Shown here: piece after piece, positions 22,479 through 64,000 of the stretch | How positions within the stretch are numbered: the stretch's first letter is position 1 | How the letters are laid out: every line of letters starts with the position of its first letter | IMG/VR virus record: IMGVR_UViG_3300021960_000026 | DNA length: 64,000 nt | DNA from: an uncultured virus (IMG/VR IMGVR_UViG_3300021960_000026) | Lineage: Duplodnaviria > Heunggongvirae > Uroviricota > Caudoviricetes | Reading direction: 5' to 3' (one strand) | Translations under genes and position numbers: made by a program | The notes under the pieces: generated by a model | The model's input: only the letters and a program-made list of their open reading frames with translations | Database searches by the model: none | What the model was told of the DNA's origin: nothing

Positions 22479-22480
22479 GA

Positions 22481-23116: not shown

Positions 23117-23129
23117 CAAGAGAGAATTT

Positions 23130-26248: not shown

Positions 26249-26895
26249 AGAACAAAATTTCCACTTACGCTTATTCTAGTATGATCCGTCCAAAATGGCG
26301 GAACATAGTGTTTTAATCCTGCAGGAAATATAAGCATTAGATTATCAAAAGGATTGACCTTAAAATAATGATGCATGAAAGTGCATATCTTTTCACCGTA
26401 TTCAAAAACAATACTGCCTGCAACTGGTGTATTTGTGTCTGCTTGATTTTCTAAAATTTCTTGCGGAACACTACAGTATATTACGAATGATAAAACTCCC
26501 TTGTGATCGTGTGGGGGATTAAAATCGTGTTTTTTATTAAAGTTTACCCAAAGGCTTTCTAACTTAATATTTTTGTACTGTTCTACATCTACAGCACCCT
26601 TATACTGCATTCTTATCATGTCAAAGAATGTATTAACCTTATCCTTAAGAATGGGCTCCATCTCTGTTTTATACTGATCACTAAATGTATAACTCCTTCC
26701 ATACTTCAAATTACCAGCAAGTTTATGATTAAAATCATCCTTTACTGATAATTTTTTTGATTCATTAAGCAAGGATTGGACTATTTCATCTGTTAGTGTT
26801 GTTTGAAATATAGGTGGTCCAAAAGGATAAATTACCTTATCGTTTTTGGCATTGGCTGCGTATGCTGAATCCGTGACAAACTGTTTCCGTTCCAT
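26245..26895 (-). CDS. 2OG-Fe(II) oxygenase-like protein
   Basis: WVNF....DFNP.HDH.G.LSFVIY, IFPA.L.H.V.PF....RISVSGN. Confidence 0.85.
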   Translation of the reverse strand: MERKQFVTDSAYAANAKNDKVIYPFGPPIFQTTLTDEIVQSLLNESKKLSVKDDFNHKLAGNLKYGRSYTFSDQYKTEMEPILKDKVNTFFDMIRMQYKGAVDVEQYKNIKLESLWVNFNKKHDFNPPHDHKGVLSFVIYCSVPQEILENQADTNTPVAGSIVFEYGEKICTFMHHYFKVNPFDNLMLIFPAGLKHYVPPFWTDHTRISVSGNFVL

Positions 26896-32200: not shown

Positions 32201-35200
32201 AATCCTTCTGCAACAGAACCAAAGTCACCGTATGAGTTGTTACCGTTAGTTCCTCTAATTCTACCACCATTGGTTGCTAGATAACCAACGTGTGAGTAGT
32301 AAGTAAACACAGACACAAGTTCAGCTCTACCATTGTTATCTACCCAAGCACCGATACCGTCGGAAATAACCTGTGTAAAGTCGTTTGACACCATCGAGTC
32401 ATTACCGCCGTTGTGTAGGGTACCGTCGATCTTCTGACCAATCGCTGCATAACCAAACGTTGTACAGTTTTGAGTGTATGGTGAACGTGCAATAATCCAT
32501 GTACGGAAATCATCTGGTCCCCAACCTGGATCAAGCGAAACGTAAGCACCAGCGGAAACTCTTGATGTTCCATAACTGTTTGGAGGTAACAGATCACCAT
32601 TCAATCCATCGAGTGTTTGGTTTCTAATACCAGTACCATTTCTTACATAATAGAAGTCTTCTTCGTGACTTCCTGTTGCTGCGTTAACATAGTATCTTGC
32701 AACATATCTTGATTTGTAGTTAGATACCCATTCAAGATCCCATTTAATTGCATCAATGTATGTGTCAACATCTCTCATACATAACGCTTCGTTGTAGTAC
32801 ATAGCAACAGTCATGCTGCCGGAAGCAGTTGAAAGTGTTAATGATGTTGTTGCATATCTTGTTGTGGCAATTGTAAATGTCGTTGTGTTAACAACATCTT
32901 GAACATAGTAAGTCGTATCTGCACTTATACCGCCAAATACTGTTCCTGAAAATCTAACTGCCGTGTTTCTTTTTAACCAACTCGTATCACTAATTGTAAT
33001 TGCGTTTCCAGAAATTGATGTGTTGGTTACTGTATCTGTAAACTGATCATCGATGTAAGCACTAACTTCTGCTTTCAAGAATGCTCTGTTCTGTTCTAAT
33101 TTTAGTCTAGCATAGTATGCCATTCTAGAATCAGTTGCACAAACAGCACCCTCATTTGATGCTCCGTAGAATACACTGTCTAACATGTCCATTAGAGAAG
33201 CAACTCTTGATGCTGCCGTAGCATCACTGTTTAAGTATGTTGCTGTATCACCTGCAATAACACTTGCCAAATACTGGAATGATGCTCTAGTTGCTGCTTT
33301 TTGGTTTAGGTCAAACACATCACTTGCGCTTGATCTTAGATATGAATTTCCAGCAATAAGTGTCGCAAAGTTAGAATTTAATTGGAAGTCAAACATTACT
33401 GCTTCTAAAATTAATCTAGTATCTCTTTCACACTTAGCAACATTGTATGTTAAAGTAGGATATGTTGTAGAAATATAGTTAGTAACTAGCGTTACAAGGG
33501 CCTCTTGCTGCGCATCTAAGGTCTCTGCAGCGGTGATCAATGCCGTTGTACTACTTACGGAGTCCGTTGCTGCTGGCATGTCAACTTTGTGTGCAGGAAT
33601 GCTTAATCCCGAACCGTTTGTTAAAGTAGCAGCACTTCCGCCATAGGTTGTGCTAATTGTTAATTGGTTTGAAGCCGGTATTGATTCAACCCAATATGTT
33701 AGATCTTTTGTCATTCCGTTTGAAGTTTCTAAAGGAATGAAAATGTCTCCAACTTGTAAACCGTGATCGACTAGGGTCGTAATTGTATTTGAAGAAATTG
33801 TTGTAATTGTAGAATTTGGTAAATCAGCACCAGTCGAGTCTCCTCCAACTGCGTTTGTAACTATGTCCAAATGTCCTGTTACAAAATCTCTTGCTGTAGA
33901 GTTTGCTACATTACTGTTTCTATATTGATTGATTGTTGTGTTCTTTTTCGTAATTGCAGTATTATTTACAATGTCGATCAAAAGAGTTCTTAAGAATGCA
34001 TGAGACTCTAGCGTTTCTCCCTTAATGCTTGCTGGAATCAACGAAGAATTTCCTTCTCCGTCCCAATATGCCTTAGCAGCATTTAGAGTTTGATAGTAGC
34101 CACCGTAGGTTAAGTCATACACTAATGCATCAACAATGTGTCCTACATCTTCTCTGGTATCTGTTTTACCAAATTTTAAGTTAGGATAGTTTTCAGCAAA
34201 CCAAGCAATTATTTCTTCCTGCAAGAATTTTTTATTTTCTTGAATTAATTTTCTTGCATTTCCAAAAGTTGCTAGATATGATGAGTTATAACCTGTTGGG
34301 TCTGTATATGAAGCGGTATGTTTAGTACCAAGTCTATAGTCTACTTGATGTTTCATTACATCAACTAACTTGCTTACTTGGGCACCTGTCACAACATCGT
34401 CAGCCAACGGCCATGATATGTCTTGTGTTTCTGTATTTCCAGATGTTGGAGTTACAGAATTTCCGCTTACGATGCCTCTTGCAACACTGCTAAAGTGAGC
34501 GAGTGTTTGAATTGAATAATAAGAGTCTGATATGTCAAGTGGTCTATCTGTTGCAGATGCTGCTCTTACCTTGGTAGTTCTTAATTCGTCACCTAGGATA
34601 CAAGTTTCTGCAGGAACGATGATCGGTAATACTTCTCTATATTCGCCTGCTTTAACATTAACGATGTTGTTAGGAACAACCCTTCCTGGGATAGCACTGT
34701 TATCTCCTGCAGAAATTGTATTAGTTACAATTGCTAACAATGAAGTAACACTTGCATAAACTCCTGATTCAACAACAACGTCAGCATCTTTATATTGTAA
34801 AGCAACAGCAGTTGAGTCTGACCCACCTGGTGTTTGATATGCAGTTGTTGGATCTGTTTGATTTAAAACGTTTCCAATGATTGTTAATAGGTGACCATAT
34901 GCTGCTAAACTTTCGTCTTTTTCTGCAGAAAGGTTAGCGTACGGAACATCTTCTGACTCTGCAGAGTATGGACCATCACCTAGTGCATCAACAAATGTTT
35001 GTGCTGCGGCTCTTATCTTTAGGTTGCCGCCGTGACCAATGTCCCAAATTAATCTATCAATGATCCAACCAACATCTCTCTCACATTTGTGTTCGTCATA
35101 ATCAAATGCGCTTGTAAATGGAGAAATGTTATTAATTACATTGTATTCGATGAAACTAGTGACTTCTCTTTGTAAGAACACTCTGTTCATTTCAAGTAGA

Positions 35201-36939: not shown

Positions 36940-36990
36940 TGTCGTTTCCGTTTGTTGTGTAGTATTTATCCATGTTGATCATCATCACTC

Positions 36991-39900
36991 CTAATCATTA
37001 AACGAATCGTAGAACATTGTTTGGGCTAACATGCTTCCGCTGATTTGCCCTCCCTTAATAAATTCAGCTCTTACCGGTATTTTAATCTCTAAACTGGCAA
37101 CATTATCCATTAAGTTAGGACCAACTTTCACTGTTCCTGCAATGAAACTTGCTGTTAATAGATCTGAACCACCAACGTTTAATCTGTTTTGTAAATACGC
37201 TTTGATTGCTCTCTGCGTAGGAATAACGTTATTACTATCCTGAGTAAATGCAGGATCAGTTGAGAACTCTCTAATAACCGTACCTGATCCACCCAATCTT
37301 ACACCACCAAGTGCAAGTTCTGTTAGACCTCCTAAGTCAAAGAAATCAGCACTAATTGTAACAATACCAGTTGCTTGTTCTACCGCAAATAATTCACCGC
37401 AGCGGAAGTTACCACTTTGGTCTGTACTTGTGTAGAATACCCTACCACCATTGGCTTCAACTACTTCATTTTCTGGAGCAGAATTAAATTCGCCAGTTGT
37501 GTATATTGTAGGATAATTTGTTTCCGTAAAGTTACCCGTTCCGATATCTAGGAAGTCGTGTCCACTAATTCTAACTTGAGAATATCTTTCTCTAATTTCC
37601 ACCTGTGATGAGTGTTCTAAATAATCATCAAGTGTTAGTTCTGGACTAATTCTAAACGTACCTACATAGGTTCCGTCAACATTTCTACTTACAATTGCTG
37701 ATGTAGCAACAGTATAGTAATTAACAGTATCACCTCTGAATCTAAACTGTGTACCAGGTCCTGGAAGTACATTGAATCCACCGACAACAACATCTTTACC
37801 TTTAGGAATCACATCAGCAAATCCATCACCTAGTATGGTTACCTGTGTAGTACTGGTTCTATAACCAGCGCCTCTGTTAATCCAACCTGGCTGCGCTAGA
37901 GCGGCATCGCCTAATCTAACTTCAACATAAGCAGGATCGGTTACATTAGGATCCGTTAGCGTAACAGTTGGATTAGATTTATATCCACTGCCTGGCTCCC
38001 ATAGTCTAATATGCTTAACGCTTCCGGCTTCAACTATTGCTCTACCAAGAGCTCGACAACCTGTTTCAATCTTACACGCATGATCAAAATTGTCTGCAAC
38101 AGTAATGAACATTGGTGTGCTGTTTGATTGTTGTGTTGAGTCTCCCAATGATATGTCAGGATTACCAAATCCTAAACTTACCCAGTAAGAAGCCTGCGAT
38201 AATAATCTGTCCTGCCATAACACACCATCGTATGATGTTGCACAGAATGCTGACTGTCCAGGTGTTGGATCATCTCCAACATTTCTCGAACCAGTGTCAC
38301 CAATAGCAAAGAAAACACCCTGTCCGTATCTAATTTTTTTCCAAGCATGAGCAGTTGATCCATCCTGTGTTGGCATGGTTCCCGCTAACCAATTCGTTCC
38401 ATCGAAACTGTAACTAACATCGCCCGTTGTGGATACCGCTACCCATCTGTTGTTACCGTAGGCAATGCTGATCCAGTCTCTGGTAGATGAGTCGTCACTA
38501 ACATCCATGATGTGTGCTTCCCAAGTCCATGTATCGGTATTGCTGTTGTATTCTCCAACTGCTGCAAAGTTACCACTGTTCGCAACCGCAACAAATTTGC
38601 CTTTGCCGTATGTGATATCGATCCACTGGTTGAATGTAGAATCTCCAATATCTGGTAATGTTGTGGCCTTCCATGTTGTGCCGCCATCTGTGCTGTATGC
38701 TGCGGCATCAAGATTGGATGCAATTGTAAGGAACACACCGTCACCGTTTCCTGAATTTGATTTTCCGTAAACTATTGCTGACCAGTTTCTAGAAGATGGA
38801 AGGGTAGATGTACTCCAGTTAATTCCATCTTCTGAATGTATTGCTTGTGTGCTTAATTGTTTAATTGCAACAAATTTATGTCCGCCTGCGGCAATCATAT
38901 TCCAGTTTCCGGCAGATGGAAGTGTTGCCTGAGTCCAGTTTGTTCCATCTTCCGAGTAGGAATAATTATCTGTTCCAGAAGCCACCGCAACGAACCTTCC
39001 GCTGGTTGCTGTGCCCTCGTATCTAAATCCTGTGATTGTATTCGTGCTATCTTCACTAACTGCTGTTACTGTTATAACGATATCATGCTCTCCGTCAGTG
39101 CCGCCAACATCCGCTCCAGAAATTGTTATTACCTGACCTACTTCGTACAATGCTCCTTCAAATGTCATTGTAACTGCATATTTTCTTCCATTCTTCACTG
39201 CACTAAATGTTGCAGAGATTGGTGTTGATGCTCCGCCGGTAACAGTTCCTTGTAGGCTTGTATAAGTTTCTTTTGTTTCTCCGTATGCAATGTCTTTCCA
39301 ATTTAGTGTTTGGCCCATGTTGGGAATTGATCTGTCAAAAGGTGGTTCACTAAATGTAACTCTAGGTTCAAATCTATAGGTATTGTCAGTGAACAGCAAA
39401 GGCTGTATCGGAGTTCCGGGAATAACGTGATCCCATCCTAGAGTATTATCTGATTCTTTTCTAACCTGACAAACTTTTGTTAGTGTATTGTATGCAACTA
39501 CGTATCCGTATTGTCCTGCGCCCTTACCCGAAGTAATGATTAATCTCATGCCTAAGAGTTTTGCTTCCGTATTATCGTCGTTGGATGCTAATGTAAGGCT
39601 TGTAGTATTTCCTTCCTGTGCGTTATTACCTACCAATGTATAACCTAGGCCGCCTTCTGTTGCGCCAGCATCGCCGGGTGCGTTCTTAACCAATGCTTCA
39701 AATACAGCATCGTCTCTAATTTCTTCGTGCACCACACTTGCATTAACACCAGAACCCGTAAATGTATAATTTGCAGTTGAATAATTTTGTCCTGCATTTC
39801 TATATTCTAATATTAGAATCTCGTCGTTGACCTCACCGGCAAACGCTGATTCAATATATGCTTGTCCTGTTCTAGTGTTAACTTCTGCATAAACAGGAGT

Positions 39901-42606
39901 TTCTGTAGGATCGTTGCCGTCTGCTACCGCACCAAAGTTACCATAGGATGAGTTACCATTAGTTGCTCTAATAACTCCTCCCTGTCTTGCGAACATACCA
40001 ATCTGTGCATAGTAGGTAAACACAGACACAAGTTCTGCTCTACCGTTGTTCTGCACCCATGCGCCTACGCCATCACTAATGACCTGTGTAAAGTCATTGG
40101 ATACTATTGATTTAACTCCACCGTTGTGTAGGTTACCGTCAATCTTCTGGCCAACACAGTTGTCACCAAAAGTTGTAACGTTCTGAATGTAAGGAGATCT
40201 ATTAATGATCCAACACTCTCTGTGATCAGGACCAAAGCCCGGATCCAATGAACAGAATGCTCCTCCAGTTGGTAACTGATACAATTCGTATACGTTAGGT
40301 GGATTCAATGTTCCATTTAGTCCCTTAACAGTCATGTCCTTAAGTGATGTTGTATCTCTCAAATAGAACATGTCGTCGTTTTGAGAACCTAGAATTAAAT
40401 TTCTATAGTATCTTGCATTTAGAAGAGATCTGTAATTTCCTGGATATCTTAAATCAAAAATAAATCCTTCAACAGCATTTCTCAAAAGGTATCTATATCT
40501 TGCTTCGTTAATTGTGTACACACCAGCATTTTGCAATTTAACATATTGGAGTGCTTCCTCAGCAATGAAGTTTCTATTTTGTCTTATGATTGTGTGAGTA
40601 TTTCTAGCCGCCGGTCCTGTTATTTCGGTTGCAAGGGAAAGAGTTGTTACTTCGGTACCAATGCTGTTTAATTCAAAATCTATGTATTGGCCCATCTGTA
40701 AAATTCTTGCGGAAATATCAGCACCTGCCGAATCAAGTATATCCGAATCTTCTTCGATAGGTAATCCAGTAATTGCATCAAGTGTTTCTGGAACCACATA
40801 TACTTTTTCTAAATTACTAAACTGAGTTACTTGATTGTATGTGTTTGTTACTGTCTTAGTAATTGGTGTTCTATTAATAATTTCCTGTATGATGTCAGAA
40901 ACTCTGTCCAACGCTTCCTTATAGTAGGAAGTGTCAACAGTTGGCAACTCTAATGGTTTATTTGGCCATATTGTTGTTGATCGTAATTCGCTACCAACTA
41001 ATGATACATTCTTAGGAATGCTCATTGGTAAAATTTCATAATAGTTTCCTGGAGCAACCCTAACCGTGTTCAATACACTGTCTTCTCCCAGTTCCATTAT
41101 TCTGTCAAGTGCAAATTTTACTGTTCTGTATGGTTTGTTTGGATCTTTACCTCTATAAACATCCTCATCATCATCGAGTGCAACTGCAGGATCAGCACTC
41201 ACGTACCAAACCTTGTTAATAATTCCAACTCTTCCATAGTCAACAGTATGATCTGATTGAACTATTAGTGAGTCTGATGCATTACCAATTGCTAAATTTG
41301 TAGTTCCTAGTGTTGATCCATCTCCTGCAAGCTCTCTTGATAGACCGTAAGTTAATATGTCACCAACATTGCTTAAAGCAACATTTGGACCCGCTAATAA
41401 TAGAACATCCCAATAATAAAAACCCGAACCGTTGTCGCCTGGATAATTGTCATTGCCACTTGTGTGCTGATAATTACATTTGTATGTGGTTCCTCTGTAT
41501 AAAACTACATCCCCAATCGCATATGATGCACCAGTTACCCAACTGTTTTTCCAATAGGTACCAGTAACTACTATTTCCCAGTTTGATGCATCTAGATAAT
41601 CAAGTGTCGATCCGTCTGCTGAAATATCAGTGTCAATTAATGCTCTGTATAGATAGCCACCTCTAGTTACTATGTCGCCTGTTTGATAACTTGTTCCACT
41701 GTTCCATATTCCAGAATATCTAATACCATTCTGCAATAATGACCAGTTCATGTCTAGTTGTGGTTGATTATAAATGCTTGTTACAGGATTTATATTTCGA
41801 TGATTAGTGTTGGAAATATAGAGGAAACCTCCATGTTTTACAACATCACCTATTGCATAGAATATAGAAGAAGACCATTCATTTCTAAAATTGTAACCTG
41901 GAAACTCAACATCAAAATATTGTGCTTGTATGTCTTCGTGATTTGAAACGTGTCCTTCATTACAACGAAGTATGCTTCCTCCGTACAATACTAAATCATT
42001 CTTAATGTATCGATAATTTCCTGTTTGGAATGCTCCAGTGTAATTAATACCTTCGTAAAGTGTTTCCCATAGTTCGCCTGTGCTGTCATCTTGGCTATCG
42101 GCATTACCAACTTCAGGACCAACTTCACTTGTATCTGATGTATGTTCTGCAATACATCTATAAACATAGCCTCCGTATTTTACAACATCACCGATACCGT
42201 ATCTAGTTACCGGTTGCCAATTTGTTGCCCAGTTAAATCCTGTGGTGTATTCGGCCCATTTTTCTGCATTAGCAATAAAGGTAAAACCTGAAATATGTCC
42301 CTGTAAAGCAATATATAGTACACCTCCATATAGAGCAAGATCGCCTGGTGCATATGTTATTGATGAATTCCAGTCACCTCTAAAGGCATAACCATCGGTC
42401 ATTTTTACCCATGCTGGTGTTGGATCAGTGTCTCCAGGATTTGCTAGATAAGCCTGATCAGTAATAAAAGATGACGATGTATGTTTTCTAACACAGACAT
42501 AGGTAACACCTCCATATCTTATAACATCATCTTTGTTATAAGCGGTGGCTCCTAACCATGCTCCGCGCCATGTATATCTAATTCGACTTATCTTAAATTC
42601 TGCCAT
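36991..42606 (-). CDS. Giant virion fibre/baseplate protein (1871 aa), paralog of 29239-36939
   Basis: Same start MAEFK..R.R..W.G.W and shared blocks SNDFTQVISDG.GAWV.NNGRAELVSVFTYY and GHDFLDIGTGNFTETNYP. Confidence 0.75.
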   Translation of the reverse strand: MAEFKISRIRYTWRGAWLGATAYNKDDVIRYGGVTYVCVRKHTSSSFITDQAYLANPGDTDPTPAWVKMTDGYAFRGDWNSSITYAPGDLALYGGVLYIALQGHISGFTFIANAEKWAEYTTGFNWATNWQPVTRYGIGDVVKYGGYVYRCIAEHTSDTSEVGPEVGNADSQDDSTGELWETLYEGINYTGAFQTGNYRYIKNDLVLYGGSILRCNEGHVSNHEDIQAQYFDVEFPGYNFRNEWSSSIFYAIGDVVKHGGFLYISNTNHRNINPVTSIYNQPQLDMNWSLLQNGIRYSGIWNSGTSYQTGDIVTRGGYLYRALIDTDISADGSTLDYLDASNWEIVVTGTYWKNSWVTGASYAIGDVVLYRGTTYKCNYQHTSGNDNYPGDNGSGFYYWDVLLLAGPNVALSNVGDILTYGLSRELAGDGSTLGTTNLAIGNASDSLIVQSDHTVDYGRVGIINKVWYVSADPAVALDDDEDVYRGKDPNKPYRTVKFALDRIMELGEDSVLNTVRVAPGNYYEILPMSIPKNVSLVGSELRSTTIWPNKPLELPTVDTSYYKEALDRVSDIIQEIINRTPITKTVTNTYNQVTQFSNLEKVYVVPETLDAITGLPIEEDSDILDSAGADISARILQMGQYIDFELNSIGTEVTTLSLATEITGPAARNTHTIIRQNRNFIAEEALQYVKLQNAGVYTINEARYRYLLRNAVEGFIFDLRYPGNYRSLLNARYYRNLILGSQNDDMFYLRDTTSLKDMTVKGLNGTLNPPNVYELYQLPTGGAFCSLDPGFGPDHRECWIINRSPYIQNVTTFGDNCVGQKIDGNLHNGGVKSIVSNDFTQVISDGVGAWVQNNGRAELVSVFTYYAQIGMFARQGGVIRATNGNSSYGNFGAVADGNDPTETPVYAEVNTRTGQAYIESAFAGEVNDEILILEYRNAGQNYSTANYTFTGSGVNASVVHEEIRDDAVFEALVKNAPGDAGATEGGLGYTLVGNNAQEGNTTSLTLASNDDNTEAKLLGMRLIITSGKGAGQYGYVVAYNTLTKVCQVRKESDNTLGWDHVIPGTPIQPLLFTDNTYRFEPRVTFSEPPFDRSIPNMGQTLNWKDIAYGETKETYTSLQGTVTGGASTPISATFSAVKNGRKYAVTMTFEGALYEVGQVITISGADVGGTDGEHDIVITVTAVSEDSTNTITGFRYEGTATSGRFVAVASGTDNYSYSEDGTNWTQATLPSAGNWNMIAAGGHKFVAIKQLSTQAIHSEDGINWSTSTLPSSRNWSAIVYGKSNSGNGDGVFLTIASNLDAAAYSTDGGTTWKATTLPDIGDSTFNQWIDITYGKGKFVAVANSGNFAAVGEYNSNTDTWTWEAHIMDVSDDSSTRDWISIAYGNNRWVAVSTTGDVSYSFDGTNWLAGTMPTQDGSTAHAWKKIRYGQGVFFAIGDTGSRNVGDDPTPGQSAFCATSYDGVLWQDRLLSQASYWVSLGFGNPDISLGDSTQQSNSTPMFITVADNFDHACKIETGCRALGRAIVEAGSVKHIRLWEPGSGYKSNPTVTLTDPNVTDPAYVEVRLGDAALAQPGWINRGAGYRTSTTQVTILGDGFADVIPKGKDVVVGGFNVLPGPGTQFRFRGDTVNYYTVATSAIVSRNVDGTYVGTFRISPELTLDDYLEHSSQVEIRERYSQVRISGHDFLDIGTGNFTETNYPTIYTTGEFNSAPENEVVEANGGRVFYTSTDQSGNFRCGELFAVEQATGIVTISADFFDLGGLTELALGGVRLGGSGTVIREFSTDPAFTQDSNNVIPTQRAIKAYLQNRLNVGGSDLLTASFIAGTVKVGPNLMDNVASLEIKIPVRAEFIKGGQISGSMLAQTMFYDSFND

Positions 42607-47973: not shown

Positions 47974-48366
47974 TTAACTAATTGGTGTTAAAACAATGTA
48001 GTCTGCAGATGAGTCGTTTTCTAGATACCAAGTATACTTGTTTCCAGAAAAGTCAGTTGCAACACGTTTTGTAATTTTAGCAATTGCAACTAGATCTGCA
48101 TCAAGGTTACCTGTTGTAGAACCTTGCAACAACATTTCGCCTTCTGCGTTTGGTGTAGAACTTTGCAATGTGCAAATACGATATGTTGAAGTTGTACCAA
48201 TTTCACCTCTACGTGTTACTGTGAAACTGTCCGATCCTCTTTGTTTAATGATAACACCATCAGTTTGATTTGAACTGCGATAAAACTGAACAGTGATTCC
48301 TGTGTTTGATGCAGGTGTTCCGATTACGTCTACACCGTTTACATCTTTTCTAAGTGGTCTTCCCAT
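47974..48366 (-). CDS. Small structural-region protein (MGRPL...)
   Basis: 130 aa; strong AGGAGA RBS; I.KQ.G...F.V motif. Confidence 0.65.
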   Translation of the reverse strand: MGRPLRKDVNGVDVIGTPASNTGITVQFYRSSNQTDGVIIKQRGSDSFTVTRRGEIGTTSTYRICTLQSSTPNAEGEMLLQGSTTGNLDADLVAIAKITKRVATDFSGNKYTWYLENDSSADYIVLTPIS

Positions 48367-48377
48367 TTGTTTTCTCC

Positions 48378-48472
48378 TATATTTAGAAGTCCGATGCGGG
48401 TTCTAGCCGCTACGAGGTTGGTTCCCCATAAGTCCACCACCTTGGTGGCACACTATCTGACACAAGTATTTA
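48378..48472 (-). promoter_or_regulatory. Late promoter plus structured multi-stem 5' leader
   Basis: TAAATA at 48467-48472; three hairpins enclosed by GUCAGAU/AUCGGAC. Confidence 0.55.
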
Positions 48473-48742
48473 TCCTTTCGAAAGCAAAGCCATAAGTTCT
48501 ATCTTGCTTATAGTAGTTAATATGCGATTAATATGATCCAGTTCTTCTTGTGCTTTTTCTAAACAGGATCGTTTTTTTGATTGTTTGTATCTAATCAAAT
48601 GTTCCATGTGCTGTTTCATGTGTTCTTCAAGACTAGTTTCAAATGATTTGACATCGTGTTTGAACATAGGAAATCTTCGTTTCCATCTTTCTAATTGATC
48701 ACGCAACTTAGAAAAGTCCTCGTATGTTTCAATCTCTTCCAT
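48470..48742 (-). CDS. Small helical hypothetical protein
   Basis: 90 aa; TAAATA 5 nt upstream of ATG. Confidence 0.6.
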   Translation of the reverse strand: MEEIETYEDFSKLRDQLERWKRRFPMFKHDVKSFETSLEEHMKQHMEHLIRYKQSKKRSCLEKAQEELDHINRILTTISKIELMALLSKG

Positions 48743-59332: not shown

Positions 59333-61800
59333 GCGGCCAATAACTTCTTAGCGTCCTCAACAGCATCAGGACCCAATTTTTTAAGTTCAGCAGCAAGTTT
59401 ATTAATATCAACCGGAGCCGCAGTTGTTCCTGTTGCTGCCGTATCCTGTCCTTGTCCTGCGCCTCTATTATCAGGTGCTGGTGTTTCTCCGCTTGTAGCG
59501 TCTGGTGCTACTGATTTTCCAGTTTGTGGATCAACTGTAGCGTTATCGTCCTGACCACCACTCGTTGACGCTGTATTCGTGTCTGTGGCGCCATCTGTAG
59601 GTGCTCCTACTGGATTGCCTGTCTTGTCAAGATTGTCTTCGGGTGAAGCATCGGGTGATCCTGCTTTTGGTTTGGCAATTGGTTTGCCAGTTTTATCCAT
59701 AAGCCCCGCTTTTGGAAAATTATAAGTTTTGTTCTTTTCGTCCTTGATTGACAGGTGGGTTTCACGACCATCTTCGGACGGGCCAACAATTGTTCCTTTC
59801 ATTTGTTGACCTTTACTTGTCTTGAATGTGACTTCGGTTCCCTTTTCAATGCCCTGCTTTTTCAATTCCTTGGCTGCTGTAAATTCTTTTTCTACCTGTT
59901 TTTCTTCCTGTGGAGAAAGACCTCTTCCAAGTCTTAGGGCTCTCTGTTCCTTTGCTTTTCCTAGATCATCATCCGTTGCTGATGCTGTTGCTGTAGCACC
60001 TGCATCGTCTGTTGCTGCTGGCTCATCGCCGCCTGCATTAGCATCTGCGGCTCCGGTAGTTGAAGTGTCAGAACCTGCATCGCCTGCTGTTGAATCGGTA
60101 GGTGCATCTGCGTTTGTATCTGCATCCGCTGCGCCTGCGTCTTTATCAGCATCCGGTGCATCCGTTGCTGCTGGTGGCTTGATCTGCATTGAGTCATAGG
60201 TACCCTTGATAACATCGTCGGATACTCCCATGCCCTTTATGACATTGTATATCTCATCTGAATCCGTTGGCGAACCCGCTTTCTTCCAGGCAGTGTTTAA
60301 TTTTTCAGCAGTAACCTTTGTGGTAACCTGTTTGGCTGCGCCCTTGATGGCACCGCCAATTGCCTTGGCACCTTTCTTGAGTGCATCAAGCGGTCCTTCG
60401 TTGATTGTTTGTCTGTTGTAGTGTGAAAGTGCATCAAACACGCTTTCAAACATTATTTTGTTTTCCAGCATGTGTGTGTTTACTTTTTCTAATCTGTTAA
60501 ACAGTAGATAAATTTGGCCTTCTGAAAGTTTCTTGCCCTTGATAATTCTGCTTTCATTTCCCTTGACAATGTTTGGATTTTCTTCTTCCTCACCTGCTTC
60601 GCCTTCCAGTTCTGCTTTTTGTTCAGGACTAATTGGTTTAGCCTTGTGCATTTCCTTGGCATCGCTATCAACAGTTTGTACAGCACCCTGTGCCGCTGCT
60701 CCTGCTGCTCCGCCAATACCTTGTATTGTTTCAATTGCTTCGTCTGCATTGTCAAGCACTGCAATAACTGCATCCAACTGATCACCTGTCAATGCATCTC
60801 TAGGAATGTCTGCTATGGTTCTTGCAAGTGCGGTTAGGTCTGCGTTTGCCTGTTGTGTTGTTGAGAGCCAACCGTGTAATTCGCCTGCCGCTTTGTAATA
60901 CTCCGGACTAAATGCTTTTGCGTTTGACGCCGCTGATGCTAACTGTTTGTATGTTGCAACCTGATCAGCAGTCATTGTCAAATCGTAGTTGTAATAAAAT
61001 GCATTGATGTTGCCTGATATTTCTAAATTCTGTGCTCCGTCCAACACACCTGTGCCCAATCCTGAATCTGCAACTGCCTTGTCCACTGCGGCCGTAAAGT
61101 TTGCCTTTTCAAAACCATCCATCATGGCATCTGCTTCTGCTTCACTACCAATTGCAATGTTGTCAATGATGTTATCAGTTATGCCCTTGATTGCCGCACC
61201 AGCAAGAGCACCATAGGCTGCTGTCTTGATTGACTTGCCTACTGCCGTTGAAAGTTTTTGTCCCTGTAATAAGTCCTTGGTTGCTCGTGCAAGGAAACCT
61301 GCAATGGCACCACCAAGTGGTCCACCAGCAACTGCTGCCGCTGCCGTTAGGATACCTACCGCAACTGAAGCCTTTCCTGGGTTTGCTTTTGCCCAATCCG
61401 AAACTGCCTTGACCGCATTGACTACCTTGCTGTCCTTTGAACCAATCTTTTGTTTTAGTTCCTCAAACTTAGCGTCTGCATTTTTTACTGGACCGGCCTT
61501 TTGTACCAATCCACCGAGCTTGTTAATTTGTGTATCAATCCACTTGACTGCCTCTACTGGAAGTTTTGCAACGTCAACGGCCTTGCCTGCCAACGTTCTG
61601 TTTCCACCTGCTGCATTTGAGCCCTGCTCAACGCTCGTGAATAACTGTTTGATCTGTTCAGGTGATAGGTTTGCTTCAAACACATACTGTTCAATTCTCG
61701 TAACCCAAGGATGGATTTCCTTCTGTTCAAACAGCGTCCATGCCGGATCGTTCCAGCCTTCAGTAACCAATTGTCTTTTTTGTATCTGTCCTAGTCTCAT
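59329..61800 (-). CDS. Large Ala-rich putative internal virion / ejection protein
   Basis: 823 aa; hydrophobic Gly/Ala hairpin; disordered C-terminus; several protease-like Glu sites. Confidence 0.55.
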   Translation of the reverse strand: MRLGQIQKRQLVTEGWNDPAWTLFEQKEIHPWVTRIEQYVFEANLSPEQIKQLFTSVEQGSNAAGGNRTLAGKAVDVAKLPVEAVKWIDTQINKLGGLVQKAGPVKNADAKFEELKQKIGSKDSKVVNAVKAVSDWAKANPGKASVAVGILTAAAAVAGGPLGGAIAGFLARATKDLLQGQKLSTAVGKSIKTAAYGALAGAAIKGITDNIIDNIAIGSEAEADAMMDGFEKANFTAAVDKAVADSGLGTGVLDGAQNLEISGNINAFYYNYDLTMTADQVATYKQLASAASNAKAFSPEYYKAAGELHGWLSTTQQANADLTALARTIADIPRDALTGDQLDAVIAVLDNADEAIETIQGIGGAAGAAAQGAVQTVDSDAKEMHKAKPISPEQKAELEGEAGEEEENPNIVKGNESRIIKGKKLSEGQIYLLFNRLEKVNTHMLENKIMFESVFDALSHYNRQTINEGPLDALKKGAKAIGGAIKGAAKQVTTKVTAEKLNTAWKKAGSPTDSDEIYNVIKGMGVSDDVIKGTYDSMQIKPPAATDAPDADKDAGAADADTNADAPTDSTAGDAGSDTSTTGAADANAGGDEPAATDDAGATATASATDDDLGKAKEQRALRLGRGLSPQEEKQVEKEFTAAKELKKQGIEKGTEVTFKTSKGQQMKGTIVGPSEDGRETHLSIKDEKNKTYNFPKAGLMDKTGKPIAKPKAGSPDASPEDNLDKTGNPVGAPTDGATDTNTASTSGGQDDNATVDPQTGKSVAPDATSGETPAPDNRGAGQGQDTAATGTTAAPVDINKLAAELKKLGPDAVEDAKKLLAA

Positions 61801-62696
61801 TATAGCATCTTCATCAGTTGTTGTTTATCTCTTGCTGGAAGTTGTTCCAACTGTTTCTTTAATTCTGGTGGTAGCGTTGATCCAGGTTCAGCAAATTGAT
61901 CCTTTGCTGCCTGACCCGCTGCCTTAAATGCTCCTCCAATGCCTCCGCCCTGTGCGTCTGCTGGAGCAACACCTGTTCCTGTATCCTTTTGTCCGCCTTC
62001 GTCACGTGCAACTGCCTGTCTTACCGCTGCCATGAATATGTTGTCCAATTGTCCTCTTGATAGGGTAACTGCACCATCCTCAAATATAAATTCTGCTTCG
62101 CTCCAATCAATGGACGCTGCCTGCATTGTTTTGTTTTGCTGGCTTGGTGGAACTATTTTCTTTCCTTTCTGGCTCTTGATAGCAACGTTATTGGTCGGAG
62201 TGGGTTGTGGTTTTTCTTGATCCTGTGATGTAGTTTGTTGTGTGTTAGTGGGTGCATTTGCATCCTTGGCACCTGCTACGGCACCCTTTGCAACATCCGC
62301 CACGCCCTTTGCCACTGCTCCAACGCCCTTGGCTATTCCGCCTGCAACCTTGCCTACGCCCTTAGCAGCCGCGCCAGCGGCCGTCCCTACGGCGGCTCCA
62401 ACTTTTTGACCAGCAGTCATCTTGGTCATTTCCTTTTCGGCATCTCCCGTAGGATAGTTGTTCTTTCTTAGAAAATCTATTACTGTCTGTGGTGTTGGCT
62501 TTCCGCCAACCTTGCCCATGAATGTATCAAATTGTTTGATTAACCAGTTGGCTTCCTTGCCAACTTCAAGATTGCCCTTTGCTTGTCTACCAGTAGCACC
62601 CGGAACGAATGATTTTGCCTTGTTAGCAAATCGTGATAGCATGCCCTGTGGTGCTTCATCTAATTGTTGTTCGATCAGAATTTCGTTTAAACGCAT
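61800..62696 (-). CDS. Putative internal virion protein
   Basis: MRLNEILIE..LDEAP start; amphipathic Ala/Gly/Lys repeats; TAAATA at 62727-62732. Confidence 0.55.
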   Translation of the reverse strand: MRLNEILIEQQLDEAPQGMLSRFANKAKSFVPGATGRQAKGNLEVGKEANWLIKQFDTFMGKVGGKPTPQTVIDFLRKNNYPTGDAEKEMTKMTAGQKVGAAVGTAAGAAAKGVGKVAGGIAKGVGAVAKGVADVAKGAVAGAKDANAPTNTQQTTSQDQEKPQPTPTNNVAIKSQKGKKIVPPSQQNKTMQAASIDWSEAEFIFEDGAVTLSRGQLDNIFMAAVRQAVARDEGGQKDTGTGVAPADAQGGGIGGAFKAAGQAAKDQFAEPGSTLPPELKKQLEQLPARDKQQLMKML

Positions 62697-62744
62697 TGAT
62701 AAATGTCCATTACTTTATTAATGTAGTATTTATGTTCGAAAGAC

Positions 62745-63326
62745 TGTAAAGAGAGATCTAAAGATCTCTTGCACTTTCGCTGTCGCTCAGTGCATTTTTC
62801 TCCTCACGAACTTTTAAGACACTTATTATATAGTGAACAATAACTGCGAAGCAGTTTTAGCATCATCTAGATTGTATGGTCACAATTAGCCCGTCTCCGG
62901 GCCAAAGGTGTGTTTTGAACATCATCTGAGTTCGCACAGTCACAATAGCATTAGAACTACAAGATTGTATAATTTACAATATTTTACACAAAATTTTAAT
63001 ATATTTTGTATATTGTACAACCTAGCGCAGGCGGTTATCCGGTACCTACTCATTCCGTCTTAGTATCTTATGTACAACGGCAGTTATACTTGAAATGCTA
63101 TCTCCAAGTATAACCTGTGGGAATGACCCACTCTTTTAGCCTATTCGTTACTTTATTATTACACAGCAAACCGGTTGTTTTAGGCATATCCGATCGTCGT
63201 CCTGTTAAGGATAGTGCTGTTGCCACTCCGCCGTTACCCAGAGAATTCCTTACCGTGCGACATCACCACGGATTTCGGGCACCATACCAGTTGCCGGTGC
63301 AGGCTTAATTAACGGTTTATACTGCC
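62745..63326 (-). ncRNA. Candidate large structured non-coding RNA / DNA element
   Basis: About 580 nt without a credible ORF in a gene-dense genome; more than 10 hairpins, several needing G-U pairs on the minus strand; GAGA tetraloop. Confidence 0.6.
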
Positions 63327-63761
63327 TTAGAGTATTGTTTTGAGGTGTTCTTTTAGAATTTTGGAACCGCCCACTCGCACGTTGATTATTCCATTGTAAT
63401 AATCGTCTGTTTCCAGCACCCTGCGATCAAACTGTTCCTTTGCCTCTAGATAACTTAGTATGCCTTTGCTTGGACAATAGTGAAGAATTTCTCTTGTAAA
63501 CTTTTCTTCGCCTAGTTTTGCAACGTCTTCCAGAAGATTGTCCGAGGAGCCCCAATAGTCTCTCCAATCGCTTTCAACTGTTGAACGTCTTTTATTTTTT
63601 CTGCCTTTTAAAGGTGGTCTAGTTTTTTTGAATTGAGCAAGTTTCTTGCCTATGTATTTTCGCCCGTTTGTGAGATTTGTGATCAAATAGACAAAGCCAA
63701 TGCATCCCTCCGGAATTTCATCAACAATTTTGTTATTATGTGTCCATTTGTGAGTCGTCAT
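63327..63761 (-). CDS. Minimal GIY-YIG family nuclease
   Basis: GFVYLITN..NGRKYIGKK, YWGSS, F.REIL, LE..EQ, YYN; no C-terminal DNA-binding domain. Confidence 0.85.
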   Translation of the reverse strand: MTTHKWTHNNKIVDEIPEGCIGFVYLITNLTNGRKYIGKKLAQFKKTRPPLKGRKNKRRSTVESDWRDYWGSSDNLLEDVAKLGEEKFTREILHYCPSKGILSYLEAKEQFDRRVLETDDYYNGIINVRVGGSKILKEHLKTIL

Positions 63762-63993
63762 CAGTCTTACTTACTTTCGACGGTCGACCCACCATGCCTT
63801 TTCTGGCTTCCTTCCTATCTGATCTCTTATTTTGGATTTCTAATCTGCGTGTGCTTGCGTGCCTTCTTATTTCACTTAGCCAAAATCTTGCCTTTATTCC
63901 TGCCTCGTCTGATTCCTTGTATTCAAAACGTTCCTGCCACTTGAAGTAGTTTTGGAACGCTTCTATCATTTGATCATGTGAATCAGTACTCAT
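63736..63993 (-). CDS. Hypothetical basic helical protein
   Basis: 85 aa; A..KAR..L.EI......RR.EIQ. Confidence 0.6.
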   Translation of the reverse strand: MSTDSHDQMIEAFQNYFKWQERFEYKESDEAGIKARFWLSEIRRHASTRRLEIQNKRSDRKEARKGMVGRPSKVSKTDDDSQMDT

Positions 63994-64000
63994 GCTTTCT

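What the first reader, a model, noticed from the sequence alone, without database searches (positions are those of the whole stretch)
62745..63761. Minimal GIY-YIG nuclease immediately followed by a ~600-nt ornate structured RNA: candidate nuclease-RNA system
Seen: the largest intergenic gap in the window starts at the GIY-YIG stop codon (63327) and is packed with stems (minus-strand reading). They include GCACC..GGUGC (63279-63300), CCGUG..CACGG (63253-63271), UCCU-UAAC-AGGA (63200-63211), GUGGG-UCAUU-CCCAC (63117-63131) and the 10-bp GUUAUACUUG/CAAGUAUAAC (63083-63114). Further stems are GUAGG..CGG-AUAA-CCG..CCUGC (63027-63048), a long AU-rich hairpin (~62961-63023) and UUGGCCCG-GAGA-CGGGCUAA (62886-62905). 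G-U pairs and the GNRA loop work only on the minus strand, co-directional with the nuclease. The 144-aa protein lacks the NUMOD/HTH DNA-recognition tail typical of GIY-YIG homing enzymes such as I-TevI, but has a Lys/Arg-rich insert (KKTRPPLKGRKNKRRS). Inference: the RNA may partner with the nuclease (guide or scaffold, analogous to HEARO/OMEGA RNAs beside compact nucleases), or may be an independent large phage ncRNA. I could not match it by eye to tRNA, tmRNA, RNase P or group I/II introns.
Basis: partly seen in the sequence, partly recalled or inferred. Interest (0 to 1): 0.9.

Follow-up and report, generated by a model that had tools for sequence, protein, structure and literature searches.

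The report
Large phage RNA beside nuclease gene
The long gap after a small nuclease gene in this T4-like freshwater phage holds a real folded RNA of about 570 bases, only the first quarter of which was already catalogued; the same RNA also occurs without the nuclease in a few bacteria, so it is probably the nuclease's neighbour and not its guide.

Summary
Window 62750-63318 (minus strand) is one ~570-nt structured RNA directly after a 144-aa SegE-type GIY-YIG gene. Rfam already holds its first 147 nt as Polynucleobacter-1 (RF01718, 62.2 bits, cut-off 37). The remaining ~420 nt match no Rfam family. They carry at least ten further helices, including a pseudoknot. On 25 phage copies, 89.8% of cells pair against 38-44% in slid controls, and 60 of 91 pairs show compensatory changes.

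The RNA follows a GIY-YIG gene on the same strand in 44 of 46 assessable freshwater contigs and 77 of 77 marine contigs.

The tie is one-sided:
- Fourteen close GIY-YIG loci and the six cultured T4-like phages examined lack the RNA.
- Two phage contigs carry a PD-(D/E)XK nuclease in the same slot.
- Full-length copies in small-genome Burkholderiales lie in chromosomal islands beside a DUF6641 gene, with no nuclease.

I read it as an independent mobile-element RNA of unknown function that rides on the nuclease gene's transcript, possibly SegB-like. A guide or scaffold role is unlikely but not excluded.

Two 12-nt boxes carry the same hexamer in 52 of 57 copies; this is unexplained.

The parts
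63327..63761 (-). 144-aa nuclease-domain-only GIY-YIG protein (SegE-type; PHROG 447, mislabelled 'NAD synthetase')
   Evidence: Pfam PF19835, E 9.8e-36. phrog_447, E 3.3e-38. AlphaFold2 model with mean pLDDT 90.5. The best sensible Foldseek hits are the I-TevI catalytic domain, TM 0.64-0.67 of target, but E 0.56-0.64.
63736..63993 (-). 85-aa upstream gene; its homologues (70-90 aa, 'cluster 1') precede the GIY-YIG gene in many contigs
   Evidence: ORF list. Clustering of upstream neighbours: 32 loci. No Pfam or PHROG hit.
62750..63318 (-). Whole structured RNA, about 570 nt in this phage and 430-490 nt in most relatives
   Evidence: nhmmer profile match 63318-62754, 266.8 bits. Alignment A1. 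Covariation counts.
63159..63305 (-). 5' domain = Rfam RF01718 Polynucleobacter-1 (helices P1-P6)
   Evidence: cmscan 62.2 bits against gathering score 37, model 1-141/141. Helices 1-7.
63117..63142 (-). Conserved single-stranded AGGCUAAAAGAG box followed by hairpin P7
   Evidence: Conserved columns in A1. P7: 6 of 6 pairs with compensatory change (helix 8).
63083..63114 (-). P8, long hairpin with a conserved purine-rich loop
   Evidence: 14 pairs, 12 with compensatory change, 92.8% of cells paired (helix 9).
63028..63077 (-). Pseudoknot core. UUGU (63074-63077) pairs with the AUAA loop (63035-63038) of hairpin P11 (CGG/CCG), which is nested in P10.
   Evidence: PK: 4 pairs, 3 with compensatory change, 100% paired. 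P10 95% and P11 97% paired (helices 10, 12, 13).
62953..63056 (-). P9 (63052-63056 with 62953-62957) closing the pseudoknot region. It encloses the lineage-specific AU-rich insert at about 62958-63027.
   Evidence: P9: 4 of 5 pairs with compensatory change, 92.8% paired (helix 11). The insert is absent in most rows of A1.
62920..62950 (-). Module 1: small hairpin P16 (62941-62950), GUGAC, spacer, box 1 ACUCAGAUGAUG (62920-62931)
   Evidence: P16 is 100% paired in A1 and 3 of 3 pairs show compensatory change in A4. Box table.
62861..62906 (-). Module 2: hairpin P12 (62885-62906), GUGAC, spacer, box 2 AUCUAGAUGAUG (62861-62872)
   Evidence: P12 is 96% paired with 6 of 8 pairs compensatory across phage and bacterial copies. 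Box hexamers are identical in 52 of 57 copies.
62842..62856 (-). Small GCUUCGC-loop hairpin (P13), present in most but not all copies
   Evidence: Seen in alignments A1 and A3. Not counted formally.
62771..62794 (-). P14 hairpin carrying the conserved GAGCGAnAGCGAA loop
   Evidence: 5 of 5 pairs with compensatory change, 83.6% paired in the CM alignment (helix 3). It is misaligned by MAFFT in A1, where only 62% pair.
62752..62769 (-). P15 terminal hairpin, presumed 3' end of the RNA
   Evidence: 7 of 7 pairs with compensatory change, 99% paired. It has no T-run, so the terminator scan did not call it.
62727..62734 (-). CATAAATA, resembling the T4 late-promoter core (recalled consensus TATAAATA), just after the RNA and before the next gene
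   Evidence: An NATAAATA motif lies within about 20 nt after P15 in 11 of 24 freshwater loci; by my reading of the tails these are co-oriented-gene cases (one such locus lacks it).
61800..62696 (-). 298-aa downstream gene, a neighbour and not part of the element
   Evidence: Homologues lie downstream in only 21 of 76 loci. In other loci the downstream gene is a convergent DUF6614 or T4 baseplate-hub gene.

Best explanation
The gap holds one gene for a large multi-domain RNA. What Rfam files as the 141-nt Polynucleobacter-1 motif is only its 5' domain.

Anatomy (shown). Downstream of that domain lie a long hairpin, an H-type pseudoknot, two copies of a 'hairpin, GUGAC, spacer, 12-nt box' module, a hairpin with a GAGCGAnAGCGAA loop, and a terminal hairpin.

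Distribution (shown). The RNA family lives on mobile DNA: uncultured T4-like myophages of fresh and salt water, and chromosomal islands of a few small-genome Burkholderiales. The bacterial copies have no nuclease gene beside them.

Mechanism (inferred). It is a trans-acting RNA whose job does not depend on the GIY-YIG protein. Its compact fold most likely displays the two identical single-stranded boxes to one partner that is bound twice; that partner is unknown.

Expression in phages (inferred). The RNA starts 2-76 nt after the stop codon of the nuclease gene, always on the same strand, with no promoter of its own detected. It is probably made as the tail of that early or middle transcript. 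It ends at the terminal hairpin, directly before a late-promoter-like motif where the next gene is co-oriented.

Why the two stay together (inferred). The GIY-YIG gene belongs to a nuclease-domain-only family that is widespread in T4-like phages and usually has no such RNA. The persistent pairing is best explained by a shared transcription unit and joint inheritance as a two-part cassette. This may be the way T4 SegB carries its neighbouring tRNA genes along.
For: RNA is real and larger than the Rfam entry:
- RF01718 covers 63159-63305 only.
- Conservation runs to about 62750.
- 17 helices with 91 pairs: 89.8% paired against 38-44% when slid, 60 pairs with compensatory change, 0 of 500 shuffles as high.
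- 3' domain on 57 phage and bacterial copies: 94.5% paired against 35-45% when slid, 21 of 23 pairs compensatory.

RNA does not need the nuclease:
- RF01718 scores above its cut-off in 3 of 151 sampled Burkholiales-order genomes (order Burkholderiales).
- Those loci carry the whole architecture, including both boxes, P12, P14 and P15. The phage-built model R1 matches them at E 1.5e-5 to 9e-4.
- There is no GIY-YIG hit in the 1.1-18 kb fetched around them.
- A divergent DUF6641 gene is the neighbour in 3 of 3 assessable loci, in islands with an integrase, SNF2-Mrr and ResIII genes.

Nuclease does not need the RNA:
- 14 GIY-YIG loci at 71-79% identity, placed after RNR or after a baseplate-hub gene, have no RNA. 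One of them, L061, gives a weak hit at E 0.0075.
- They nest inside the RNA-linked clade in a quick tree.
- The family occurs in 453 phage records. The six contexts examined have 0-206 nt after the gene and no profile or CM hit.
- Melnitz has the gene but no RNA.

Slot and cassette:
- GIY-YIG is upstream on the same strand in 44 of 46 and 77 of 77 loci.
- The pair keeps together behind at least 9 different upstream neighbour families.
- L100 and L134 have a PDDEXK_15 nuclease in the slot instead, and no GIY-YIG on their 89.5-kb and 17.7-kb contigs.
- L134 against L002/L003: the RNA is 96-97.6% identical but the flanking genes are only 75-78% identical.

Transcription:
- No sigma-70-like promoter is called on the minus strand in 62500-64000.
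- A late-promoter-like NATAAATA follows P15 in 11 of 24 loci.
- Contigs from four metatranscriptome studies cover the nuclease gene and the RNA, and two contigs bridge the stop codon.

Precedent: SegB, a GIY-YIG homing enzyme inside the T4 tRNA cluster, recognises a tRNA-gene motif and spreads the neighbouring tRNA genes (abstract of PMC2330249).
Against: - No phage copy without some nuclease gene upstream was found: 0 of 123 assessable loci. That is tighter than a sporadic selfish gene or plain synteny would predict.
- RNA and GIY-YIG diverge roughly in step (RNA 97/77/54% against protein 98/78/59% for L003, L007, L098).
- The protein has no DNA-binding tail, so classical seg-type site recognition is unexplained. 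A partner that gives specificity is conceivable.
- The two locus sets were drawn with exact sequence patterns and contain near-duplicates, so the counts are not independent events.
- The bacterial copies are few (3-4). Their 3' domain matches at modest E-values.
- The RNA-library contigs cannot show strand, ends or transcription, because DNA can be present in such libraries.
- The RNA's function and the partner of the boxes are not known.
Confidence: 0.55

Rival explanations
1. SegB-like homing. The GIY-YIG gene, and in two contigs the PD-(D/E)XK gene, is a free-standing homing endonuclease. Its cleavage site would lie in the highly conserved DNA of the RNA gene. The nuclease sits next to its target and co-converts it, which keeps the two together and moves them between phage backbones.
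For: - SegE-type Pfam family.
- Weak similarity to group-I-intron endonucleases: TIGR01453, 24.9 bits, below its cut-off of 56.05.
- Same-family copies occur in three genome contexts, with the RNA-less ones nested in the RNA-linked clade.
- Two unrelated nucleases alternate in exactly the same slot.
- There is a recombination-like break: the RNA is 96-98% identical between L134 and L002/L003 against 75-78% for the genes just upstream.
- Precedent: SegB and the tRNA genes (abstract).
Against: - No empty sites among 123 assessable RNA loci.
- No pseudogenised copies were noticed.
- There is one match place in each of the 453 cultured-phage records, and the sequence is conserved along its whole length. 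This looks like a maintained gene, not a transient selfish one.
- The protein has no DNA-recognition domain.
- The PDDEXK_15 family is labelled by PHROGs as a RusA-like resolvase, so it is not an evident homing enzyme.
Confidence: 0.2
2. Ribonucleoprotein. The RNA binds the domain-only GIY-YIG nuclease and gives it target choice, or acts as a scaffold or an on/off control.
For: - The adjacency is near universal and same-strand in phages, and is kept through many changes of both flanks.
- The nuclease lacks its own recognition domain.
- Two identical single-stranded boxes vary between lineages in concert. They could address something sequence-specifically.
- RNA and protein diverge in parallel.
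Against: - The RNA is complete in bacteria without the nuclease.
- Close homologues of the nuclease and the wider family work without the RNA.
- The basic insert is not specific to RNA-linked members.
- An unrelated nuclease fold sits in the slot in two loci, and other genes lie between nuclease and RNA in four loci.
- The boxes are 6-12 nt, which is short for a guide. No hypervariable end segment was seen.
- The literature search found no natural RNA-guided GIY-YIG enzyme among the 15 of 44 papers listed (listing and abstract starts only).
Confidence: 0.12
3. Cis-acting element. The RNA is a giant leader, 3' UTR or boundary element that controls neighbouring genes. This follows Weinberg 2010, which marked the motif as probably cis-regulatory. 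It could, for instance, stop or pass early transcription into the late structural genes, or stabilise the nuclease mRNA.
For: - The motif table in PMC2864571 lists cis-reg 'y' and switch '?'.
- The RNA lies at a module border, with a gp46/gp47-like recombination module upstream and baseplate or structural genes downstream.
- In bacterium G055 a 224-aa gene starts about 30 nt after the terminal hairpin.
Against: - Downstream genes differ and are often convergent.
- Where the downstream gene is co-oriented, a late-promoter-like motif lies after the RNA, so the RNA is not in that gene's leader.
- The upstream gene can be a GIY-YIG, a PD-(D/E)XK or another gene.
- More than 430 nt with a pseudoknot and 15 or more helices, conserved from phages to bacteria, is far more than a terminator or stabiliser needs.
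Confidence: 0.08

Closest known systems
Polynucleobacter-1 RNA motif (Rfam RF01718; Weinberg et al. 2010, PMC2864571)
   Same: The window's 63159-63305 matches the full 141-position model at 62.2 bits, and the helices co-vary. The habitat and Burkholderiales link are the same.
   Different: The filed motif stops at the 5' domain. Here about 300-420 further nucleotides are conserved and structured. Most copies are in T4-like phages behind a GIY-YIG gene, a context I did not find described in print; the one paper naming the motif was seen only as table rows and supplement passages. Marine phage copies keep the 3' domain but have another 5' domain: 0 Rfam hits in 20 marine loci.
Phage T4 SegB, a GIY-YIG homing endonuclease inside the tRNA gene cluster (PMC2330249; abstract read)
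   Same: A small phage GIY-YIG gene sits among structured-RNA genes in a T4-type genome. SegB recognises a conserved RNA-gene motif and spreads its neighbours. The slot swap and the identity break seen here fit that picture.
   Different: The SegB abstract reports a 27-bp recognition site; its DNA-binding part is recalled, not seen in a call. The protein here is the nuclease domain alone. segB is missing from related phages (abstract), whereas here no nuclease-free RNA locus was found in phages. Cleavage was not tested.
OMEGA/HEARO-type RNA-guided nucleases (IscB, TnpB with their omega RNAs; recalled, plus listings)
   Same: A compact nuclease gene sits next to a large structured RNA on mobile DNA.
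   Different: Different nuclease folds. Co-occurrence here is not obligatory in either direction. No terminal guide segment was seen, and no transposon ends were looked for or seen.
Large ornate RNAs of phages and bacteria such as GOLLD and ROOL (bioRxiv 10.1101/2024.12.08.627333; only the listing and the start of the abstract seen)
   Same: Several hundred nucleotides, many co-varying helices, found in phages and mobile regions, function unknown.
   Different: No Rfam match to any of them at E up to 5 over 62600-63450. Whether this RNA forms multimers is unknown.

Membership tests
Rfam RF01718 Polynucleobacter-1 | Covariance-model score at or above the curated gathering score (37 bits) over the whole model | tested here: met
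   62.2 bits, E 7.9e-11, model positions 1-141/141, window 63159-63305 minus strand.
Rfam RF01718 Polynucleobacter-1 | Model helices kept by compensatory change in relatives | tested here: met
   Helices 1-7. P1 is 98% paired with 4 of 5 pairs compensatory. P2, P3, P5 and P6 are 78-89% paired despite MAFFT shifts. P4 is invariant.
Rfam RF01718 Polynucleobacter-1 | The family as filed is a ~140-nt unit (sRNA or cis-regulatory) | tested here: not met
   Conservation and covariation continue for 300-420 nt in 25 phage copies and in the bacterial copies. The filed unit is one domain of a longer RNA.
GIY-YIG nuclease superfamily (Pfam PF19835 SegE_GIY-YIG) | Profile match above the curated cut-off | tested here: met
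   123.1 bits against cut-off 25, E 9.8e-36, full profile.
GIY-YIG nuclease superfamily (Pfam PF19835 SegE_GIY-YIG) | Conserved GIY and YIG tyrosines and the Arg/Glu/Asn of the active site (residue roles recalled from I-TevI) | tested here: met
   Invariant in 26 sequences: V24-Y25, Y36-G38, R90, E106, N123. The same columns are conserved in the 102-row alignment. Assigning catalytic roles to these residues is my inference.
GIY-YIG nuclease superfamily (Pfam PF19835 SegE_GIY-YIG) | GIY-YIG alpha/beta fold | tested here: inconclusive
   AlphaFold2 mean pLDDT 90.5. Foldseek ranks the I-TevI catalytic domain 2nd and 4th (TM 0.64-0.67 of target, probability 0.72-0.75), but E is 0.56-0.64 and no hit reaches E <= 0.001. 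There is no PDB hit by sequence or by profile.
Free-standing homing endonucleases of T-even phages (seg type) | Nuclease domain joined to a DNA-binding domain that sets the site (recalled) | tested here: not met
   144 aa in all; the Pfam domain spans residues 6-126 with no second domain. Family members are 140-160 aa.
Free-standing homing endonucleases of T-even phages (seg type) | Patchy presence among close relatives, with empty sites | tested here: not met
   0 nuclease-free sites among 46 plus 77 assessable RNA loci. Two loci have a different nuclease in the slot.
Free-standing homing endonucleases of T-even phages (seg type) | Site-specific cleavage and preferential inheritance | not testable with these tools
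   Needs purified protein and phage crosses. No cultured phage carries the cassette.
RNA-guided nuclease systems (OMEGA-like) | Nuclease and RNA always occur together | tested here: not met
   RNA without nuclease in bacteria and in L100 and L134. Nuclease without RNA in 14 loci and in the six cultured phage contexts examined.
RNA-guided nuclease systems (OMEGA-like) | A variable guide segment in an otherwise conserved RNA | tested here: inconclusive
   The only lineage-variable, unpaired, conserved-position elements are the two 12-nt boxes. Their hexamers agree in 52 of 57 copies. They are short, and no target was identified.

The most novel reading that the evidence does not exclude
In these phages the domain-only GIY-YIG nuclease may have recruited a pre-existing mobile-element RNA as its specificity or control subunit. 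The two identical boxes would be the addressing elements. That would make a natural RNA-directed GIY-YIG nuclease, a combination I found described in none of the listed papers of my two literature searches (listings and abstract starts only). The bacterial copies would then show the ancestral, nuclease-free state of the RNA.
Probability: 0.1. Interest if true: 0.95.

Novelty: new variant of a known kind. Interest (0 to 1): 0.62.

Why it matters
Large, highly structured non-coding RNAs are rare. Each well-supported one (OLE, GOLLD, ROOL, HEARO) has become a research subject. This finding adds several testable points:

- A motif filed since 2010 as a ~140-nt unit is the head of a multi-domain RNA of about 450-570 nt with a pseudoknot and a duplicated module.
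- It has a much wider home than was recorded: more than 120 uncultured T4-like phage contigs from fresh and salt water, plus bacterial islands.
- It has a strikingly constant neighbour in phages, the GIY-YIG gene.
- Two boxes change in concert without being complementary, which points to a partner bound twice.

The Rfam entry could be extended. The bacterial carriers offer a culturable system in which to ask what the RNA does.

Tried and rejected
- **Genome-contig scan.** All were chance matches, with 0 nhmmer hits, so it says nothing about bacteria. The bacterial copies came from the genome search instead.
- **Misreading of the upstream neighbour.** I first took it for a divergent gene (note). 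ORF and BLAST checks reversed this.
- **Internal complement for the boxes.** UCRGAURAU can pair with RUUGUUUGA at the end of the 5' domain (8-9 bp with G.U) in the main freshwater clade, but only 4-6 bp in the window's own type and four others. Not accepted.
- **Motif comparisons by eye.** I compared the modules with k-turn, C/D-box, hammerhead-core, group I/II intron and T-loop patterns. None fitted consistently, and Rfam gave nothing at E up to 5 beyond RF01718 and a chance-level row.
- **Specifier-like reading of the boxes.** Positions 3-5 read AUG, AUA or CGA, followed by A. This is speculation only.
- **Relation to T4 EndoII or solved GIY-YIG proteins by sequence.** No PDB hit.
- **DUF6641 against the phage 85-aa protein.** No similarity. 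DUF6641 is absent from 5 large phage contigs.
- **RNA-library contigs.** There is no cover over 62500-62907 in the four runs laid, and no ends or strand information. I draw no conclusion from that.
- **Cultured phages.** No blastn match for the window-type, freshwater-type or marine-type RNA among 50,697 phage records.
- **Papers.** One search each for 'Polynucleobacter-1' (1 paper), for GIY-YIG with ncRNA/covariation/phage, for RNA-guided with GIY-YIG and for DUF6641/DUF6876/PF20346 (0 papers). None describes the long RNA or the linkage. Additional file 1 of PMC2864571, which holds the motif descriptions as a .DOC file, could not be read and may bear on this.
Full report
**Setting.** The window is part of a T4-like myophage.
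- It encodes a T4-type portal (PF07230), major head protein, sheath, large terminase, prohead protease and baseplate hub.
- No tRNA gene is present.
- The finding lies at the window's right edge. On the minus strand the order is an 85-aa ORF (63736-63993), the 144-aa ORF (63327-63761), a 630-nt gap, then a 298-aa and an 823-aa ORF.
- The gap is the longest ORF-free stretch in the window.

**The protein.** The 144-aa ORF matches Pfam PF19835 (SegE_GIY-YIG) over the whole profile (E 9.8e-36, residues 6-126) and has no second domain.
- PHROG 447, its best PHROG, is labelled 'NAD synthetase'. The next PHROGs are homing endonucleases.
- NCBIfam gives only a sub-threshold match to group-I-intron endonucleases.
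- An AlphaFold2 model built on 26 relatives is confident (mean pLDDT 90.5). Its best sensible Foldseek hits are the I-TevI catalytic domain, but at E about 0.6.
- Neither the sequence nor a profile finds a solved structure.
- The GIY and YIG tyrosines and a conserved Arg, Glu and Asn are invariant in relatives. Their catalytic roles are my inference from I-TevI.
It is therefore not a mark of RNA binding.

**The RNA: what was known.** At gathering thresholds, Rfam finds Polynucleobacter-1 (RF01718) at 63159-63305 on the minus strand: 62.2 bits against a cut-off of 37, covering the full model.
- A permissive scan of 62600-63450 adds only a chance-level row.
- The one paper in the library that names the motif is Weinberg et al. 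2010. I saw the table row and supplement passages: 'RNA y, cis-reg y, switch ?', Burkholderiales and fresh water/estuary, 16 sequences, one RefSeq hit in NC_009379.
- That paper's descriptive supplement (a .DOC file) could not be read.

**The RNA: what is new.** I took a conserved 5'-domain pattern from the window and scanned viral contigs with it.
- An nhmmer profile built from 21 full-length copies recognises 50 of these loci as carrying the RNA.
- Aligning them shows that conservation does not stop at the end of the Rfam model. It continues to about 62750.
- RNAalifold on 25 distinct full-length copies predicts 67 pairs, 37 of them with compensatory changes.
- A hand-curated structure has 17 helices and 91 pairs, including a pseudoknot. 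On it, 89.8% of cells pair against 38-44% when partners are slid by 1-3 columns. Sixty pairs show changes on both sides. The covariation score is 0.427 against 0.167 in shuffles, and 0 of 500 shuffles reach it.
- Ten of these helices lie outside the Rfam model: P7, the 14-bp P8, the pseudoknot, P9-P12, P14-P16.
Seven recur in relatives. The AU-rich hairpin at about 62961-63023 is an insert found in only a few lineages.

**A shared 3' domain.** I built a covariance model of the 3' domain from freshwater phage copies only (167 positions).
- It finds the marine copies at E down to 1e-24 and three bacterial copies at E 1.5e-5 to 9e-4.
- It finds nothing in six cultured-phage loci or in 12 of 13 RNA-less GIY-YIG loci searched. 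L061 gives a weak hit at E 0.0075.
- On the resulting 57-row alignment, 94.5% of cells pair against 35-45% when slid, and 21 of 23 pairs show compensatory change. That alignment is fitted to the model's structure and so leans toward it.
- The marine copies have a different 5' domain. The freshwater profile matches only their 3' half, and Rfam finds nothing in 20 marine loci.

**Linkage with the nuclease gene in phages.** I first misread the upstream neighbour as a divergent gene. ORF calling and BLAST corrected that.

| Locus set | Result |
|---|---|
| 50 freshwater-type RNA loci found through the RNA alone | 38 have a GIY-YIG homologue (51-99% identity) ending 2 nt inside to 76 nt before the RNA, on the same strand |
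| | 6 have it further upstream: 4 with a 257-272-aa gene in between, 2 at 144-174 nt |
| | 2 have none |
| | 4 have too little flank to tell |
| 96 loci from a second RNA-only scan with a marine 3'-domain 20-mer | all 77 with enough flank have the gene 317-397 nt upstream, same strand |

- The pair stays together although the gene before it belongs to at least nine families: Rad50/gp46-like plus a small protein, two kinds of radical-SAM protein, and others.
- The gene after it is a co-oriented homologue of the 298-aa protein, a convergent DUF6614 gene, or a convergent baseplate-hub gene.
- Both locus sets were defined by exact patterns and contain near-duplicates, so these counts overstate the number of independent events.

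**The tie is one-sided.** A protein search returned 597 relatives, of which the best 80 loci were kept.
- Fourteen of those loci, each with at least 581 nt of downstream sequence, have no RNA by either nhmmer profile. Five follow a ribonucleotide-reductase gene, among them phage Melnitz. Nine follow a baseplate-hub gene.
- In all, 22 of 123 downstream segments had no hit. I did not inspect the other eight one by one; several have short flanks.
- In a quick tree (SH-aLRT support only, many open forks), these RNA-less copies sit inside the clade of marine RNA-linked copies. The freshwater RNA-linked proteins form their own clade with support 99.
- Melnitz has no RNA anywhere: best blastn E is 0.34, and there are no profile hits after its gp46-like gene.
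- The protein family occurs in 453 phage records, one place per record, mostly cyanophages. In S-SRM01, phiM12, ACP17, P-HM1 and Moby only 0-206 nt follow the gene. Neither these nor an unannotated Variovorax phage give a profile or CM hit.

**A second nuclease in the slot.** Contigs L100 and L134 carry the RNA directly behind a PD-(D/E)XK endonuclease gene (PF24608; PHROG 244, labelled RusA-like resolvase). They have no GIY-YIG gene anywhere on 89.5 kb and 17.7 kb.
- L134 is collinear with the window's closest relatives L002 and L003. The gp46-like gene is 76-78% identical and the small upstream gene 75-78%. The RNA is 96-97.6% identical, and the nuclease gene is exchanged.
- One salt-marsh RNA-library contig shows the same L134-type junction.

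**Bacterial copies.** In a sample of 151 genomes of one order (Burkholderiales, centred on a Comamonadaceae MAG), RF01718 scores above its cut-off in three genomes of 1.8-1.9 Mb and weakly in a fourth.
- It is found in 1 of 4 genomes of the genus and 1 of 33 of the family of one carrier. It is therefore an accessory element.
- The sequences show the full layout: 5' domain, pseudoknot hairpin, both boxes, P12, the GAGCGAnAGCGAA hairpin and a terminal hairpin.
- No GIY-YIG match lies in the fetched 1.1-18 kb.
- In all three loci with flanks, the divergent neighbour is a DUF6641 protein. Nearby lie a phage-type integrase, an SNF2-Mrr fusion, ResIII-type proteins and DUF6876.
- DUF6641 is absent from five large phage contigs that carry the RNA. 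It is unrelated to the phage 85-aa protein.

**Expression.** Twenty metatranscriptome runs hold 8-23% of the sampled words.
- Assembled contigs from four studies (fresh water, salt marsh) cover 62908-63999 at depth 3-11. Two contigs bridge the nuclease stop codon into the RNA.
- Contigs give no strand, ends or proof of transcription, so this is weak support only.
- No sigma-70-type promoter is called on the minus strand in 62500-64000.
- An NATAAATA motif resembling the T4 late-promoter core (consensus recalled) lies within about 20 nt after the terminal hairpin in 11 of 24 freshwater loci. By my reading of the printed tails these are loci whose next gene is co-oriented; one further co-oriented locus (L103) lacks it.
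- This places the RNA at the end of the upstream transcription unit and outside the leader of the next gene.

**An unexplained feature.** Each of two modules (hairpin, GUGAC, 6-8 nt spacer) ends in a 12-nt box. In the window these are ACUCAGAUGAUG at 62920-62931 and AUCUAGAUGAUG at 62861-62872.
- The central hexamer is the same in both boxes in 52 of 57 aligned copies, across ten hexamer types (for example ACAUGA, AGAUAA, GGCGAA). The five misses are low-scoring, poorly aligned rows.
- The variation is identical in the two boxes, not complementary. No consistent internal partner was found.
- This suggests that one partner recognises both boxes.

**Reading.** I weigh four explanations.
- *Best supported (0.55):* an independent, trans-acting mobile-element RNA. 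In phages it is expressed from, and inherited with, the neighbouring nuclease gene.
- *SegB-like homing (0.2):* the nuclease targets the conserved RNA gene. The slot swap and the identity break favour it. The absence of empty sites, the missing DNA-binding domain and the family's steady single-copy presence argue against it.
The tightness of the linkage and the domain-only protein keep it alive, but each component occurs without the other.
- *Purely cis-regulatory element (0.08):* the changing and often convergent neighbours argue against it.

**Novelty.** The 5' domain is known. I did not find the long RNA, its phage and bacterial distribution, its constant GIY-YIG neighbour or the concerted boxes in Rfam 15 or in the papers searched. 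The scan's earlier notes hold nothing on this RNA.

Noticed in passing
window 48364-48449 (-): A second Rfam match: freshwater-2 RNA (RF02980), 70.5 bits against a cut-off of 49.9. It lies in the 103-nt gap between ORFs 48470-48742 and 47974-48366, just downstream of the major head gene region.
   Followed up: no
window 6793-7233 (-): A 146-aa ORF with a TnsA-like endonuclease N-terminal domain (PF08722, E 4.9e-22). It is another small stand-alone nuclease gene in this phage.
   Followed up: no
window 21091-26895: A cluster with a tryptophan-halogenase-like gene (23825-25300, PF04820, E 5e-95) and three 2OG-Fe(II) oxygenase genes. This is unusual auxiliary metabolism for a T4-like phage.
   Followed up: no
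window 29239-42606 (-): Two giant tail-fibre-like ORFs of 2566 and 1871 aa. Both match PHROG 9851.
   Followed up: no
L437 8873-9340; L438 1466-1966; L439 7839-8273: In bacteria the RNA is always next to a divergent DUF6641 gene (also phrog_31551). The surrounding islands carry an integrase, an SNF2-Mrr fusion, ResIII and DUF6876 genes. DUF6641 may be the RNA's real partner there.
   Followed up: partly
L004-L081 and L337-L416 (marine viral contigs), about 160-400 nt after the GIY-YIG stop codon: Marine copies keep the 3' domain but carry a different, conserved 5' domain that matches no Rfam family. The RNA therefore appears modular.
   Followed up: partly
L098 (contig of 345,154 nt, 99% complete by CheckV): The GIY-YIG plus RNA cassette also occurs in a jumbo-sized phage genome, behind a B12-binding radical-SAM gene.
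   Followed up: no
L097, L145, L104, L159 (and probably L177): A 257-272-aa gene with no Pfam match is inserted between the GIY-YIG gene and the RNA. The junction is therefore itself an insertion site.
   Followed up: partly
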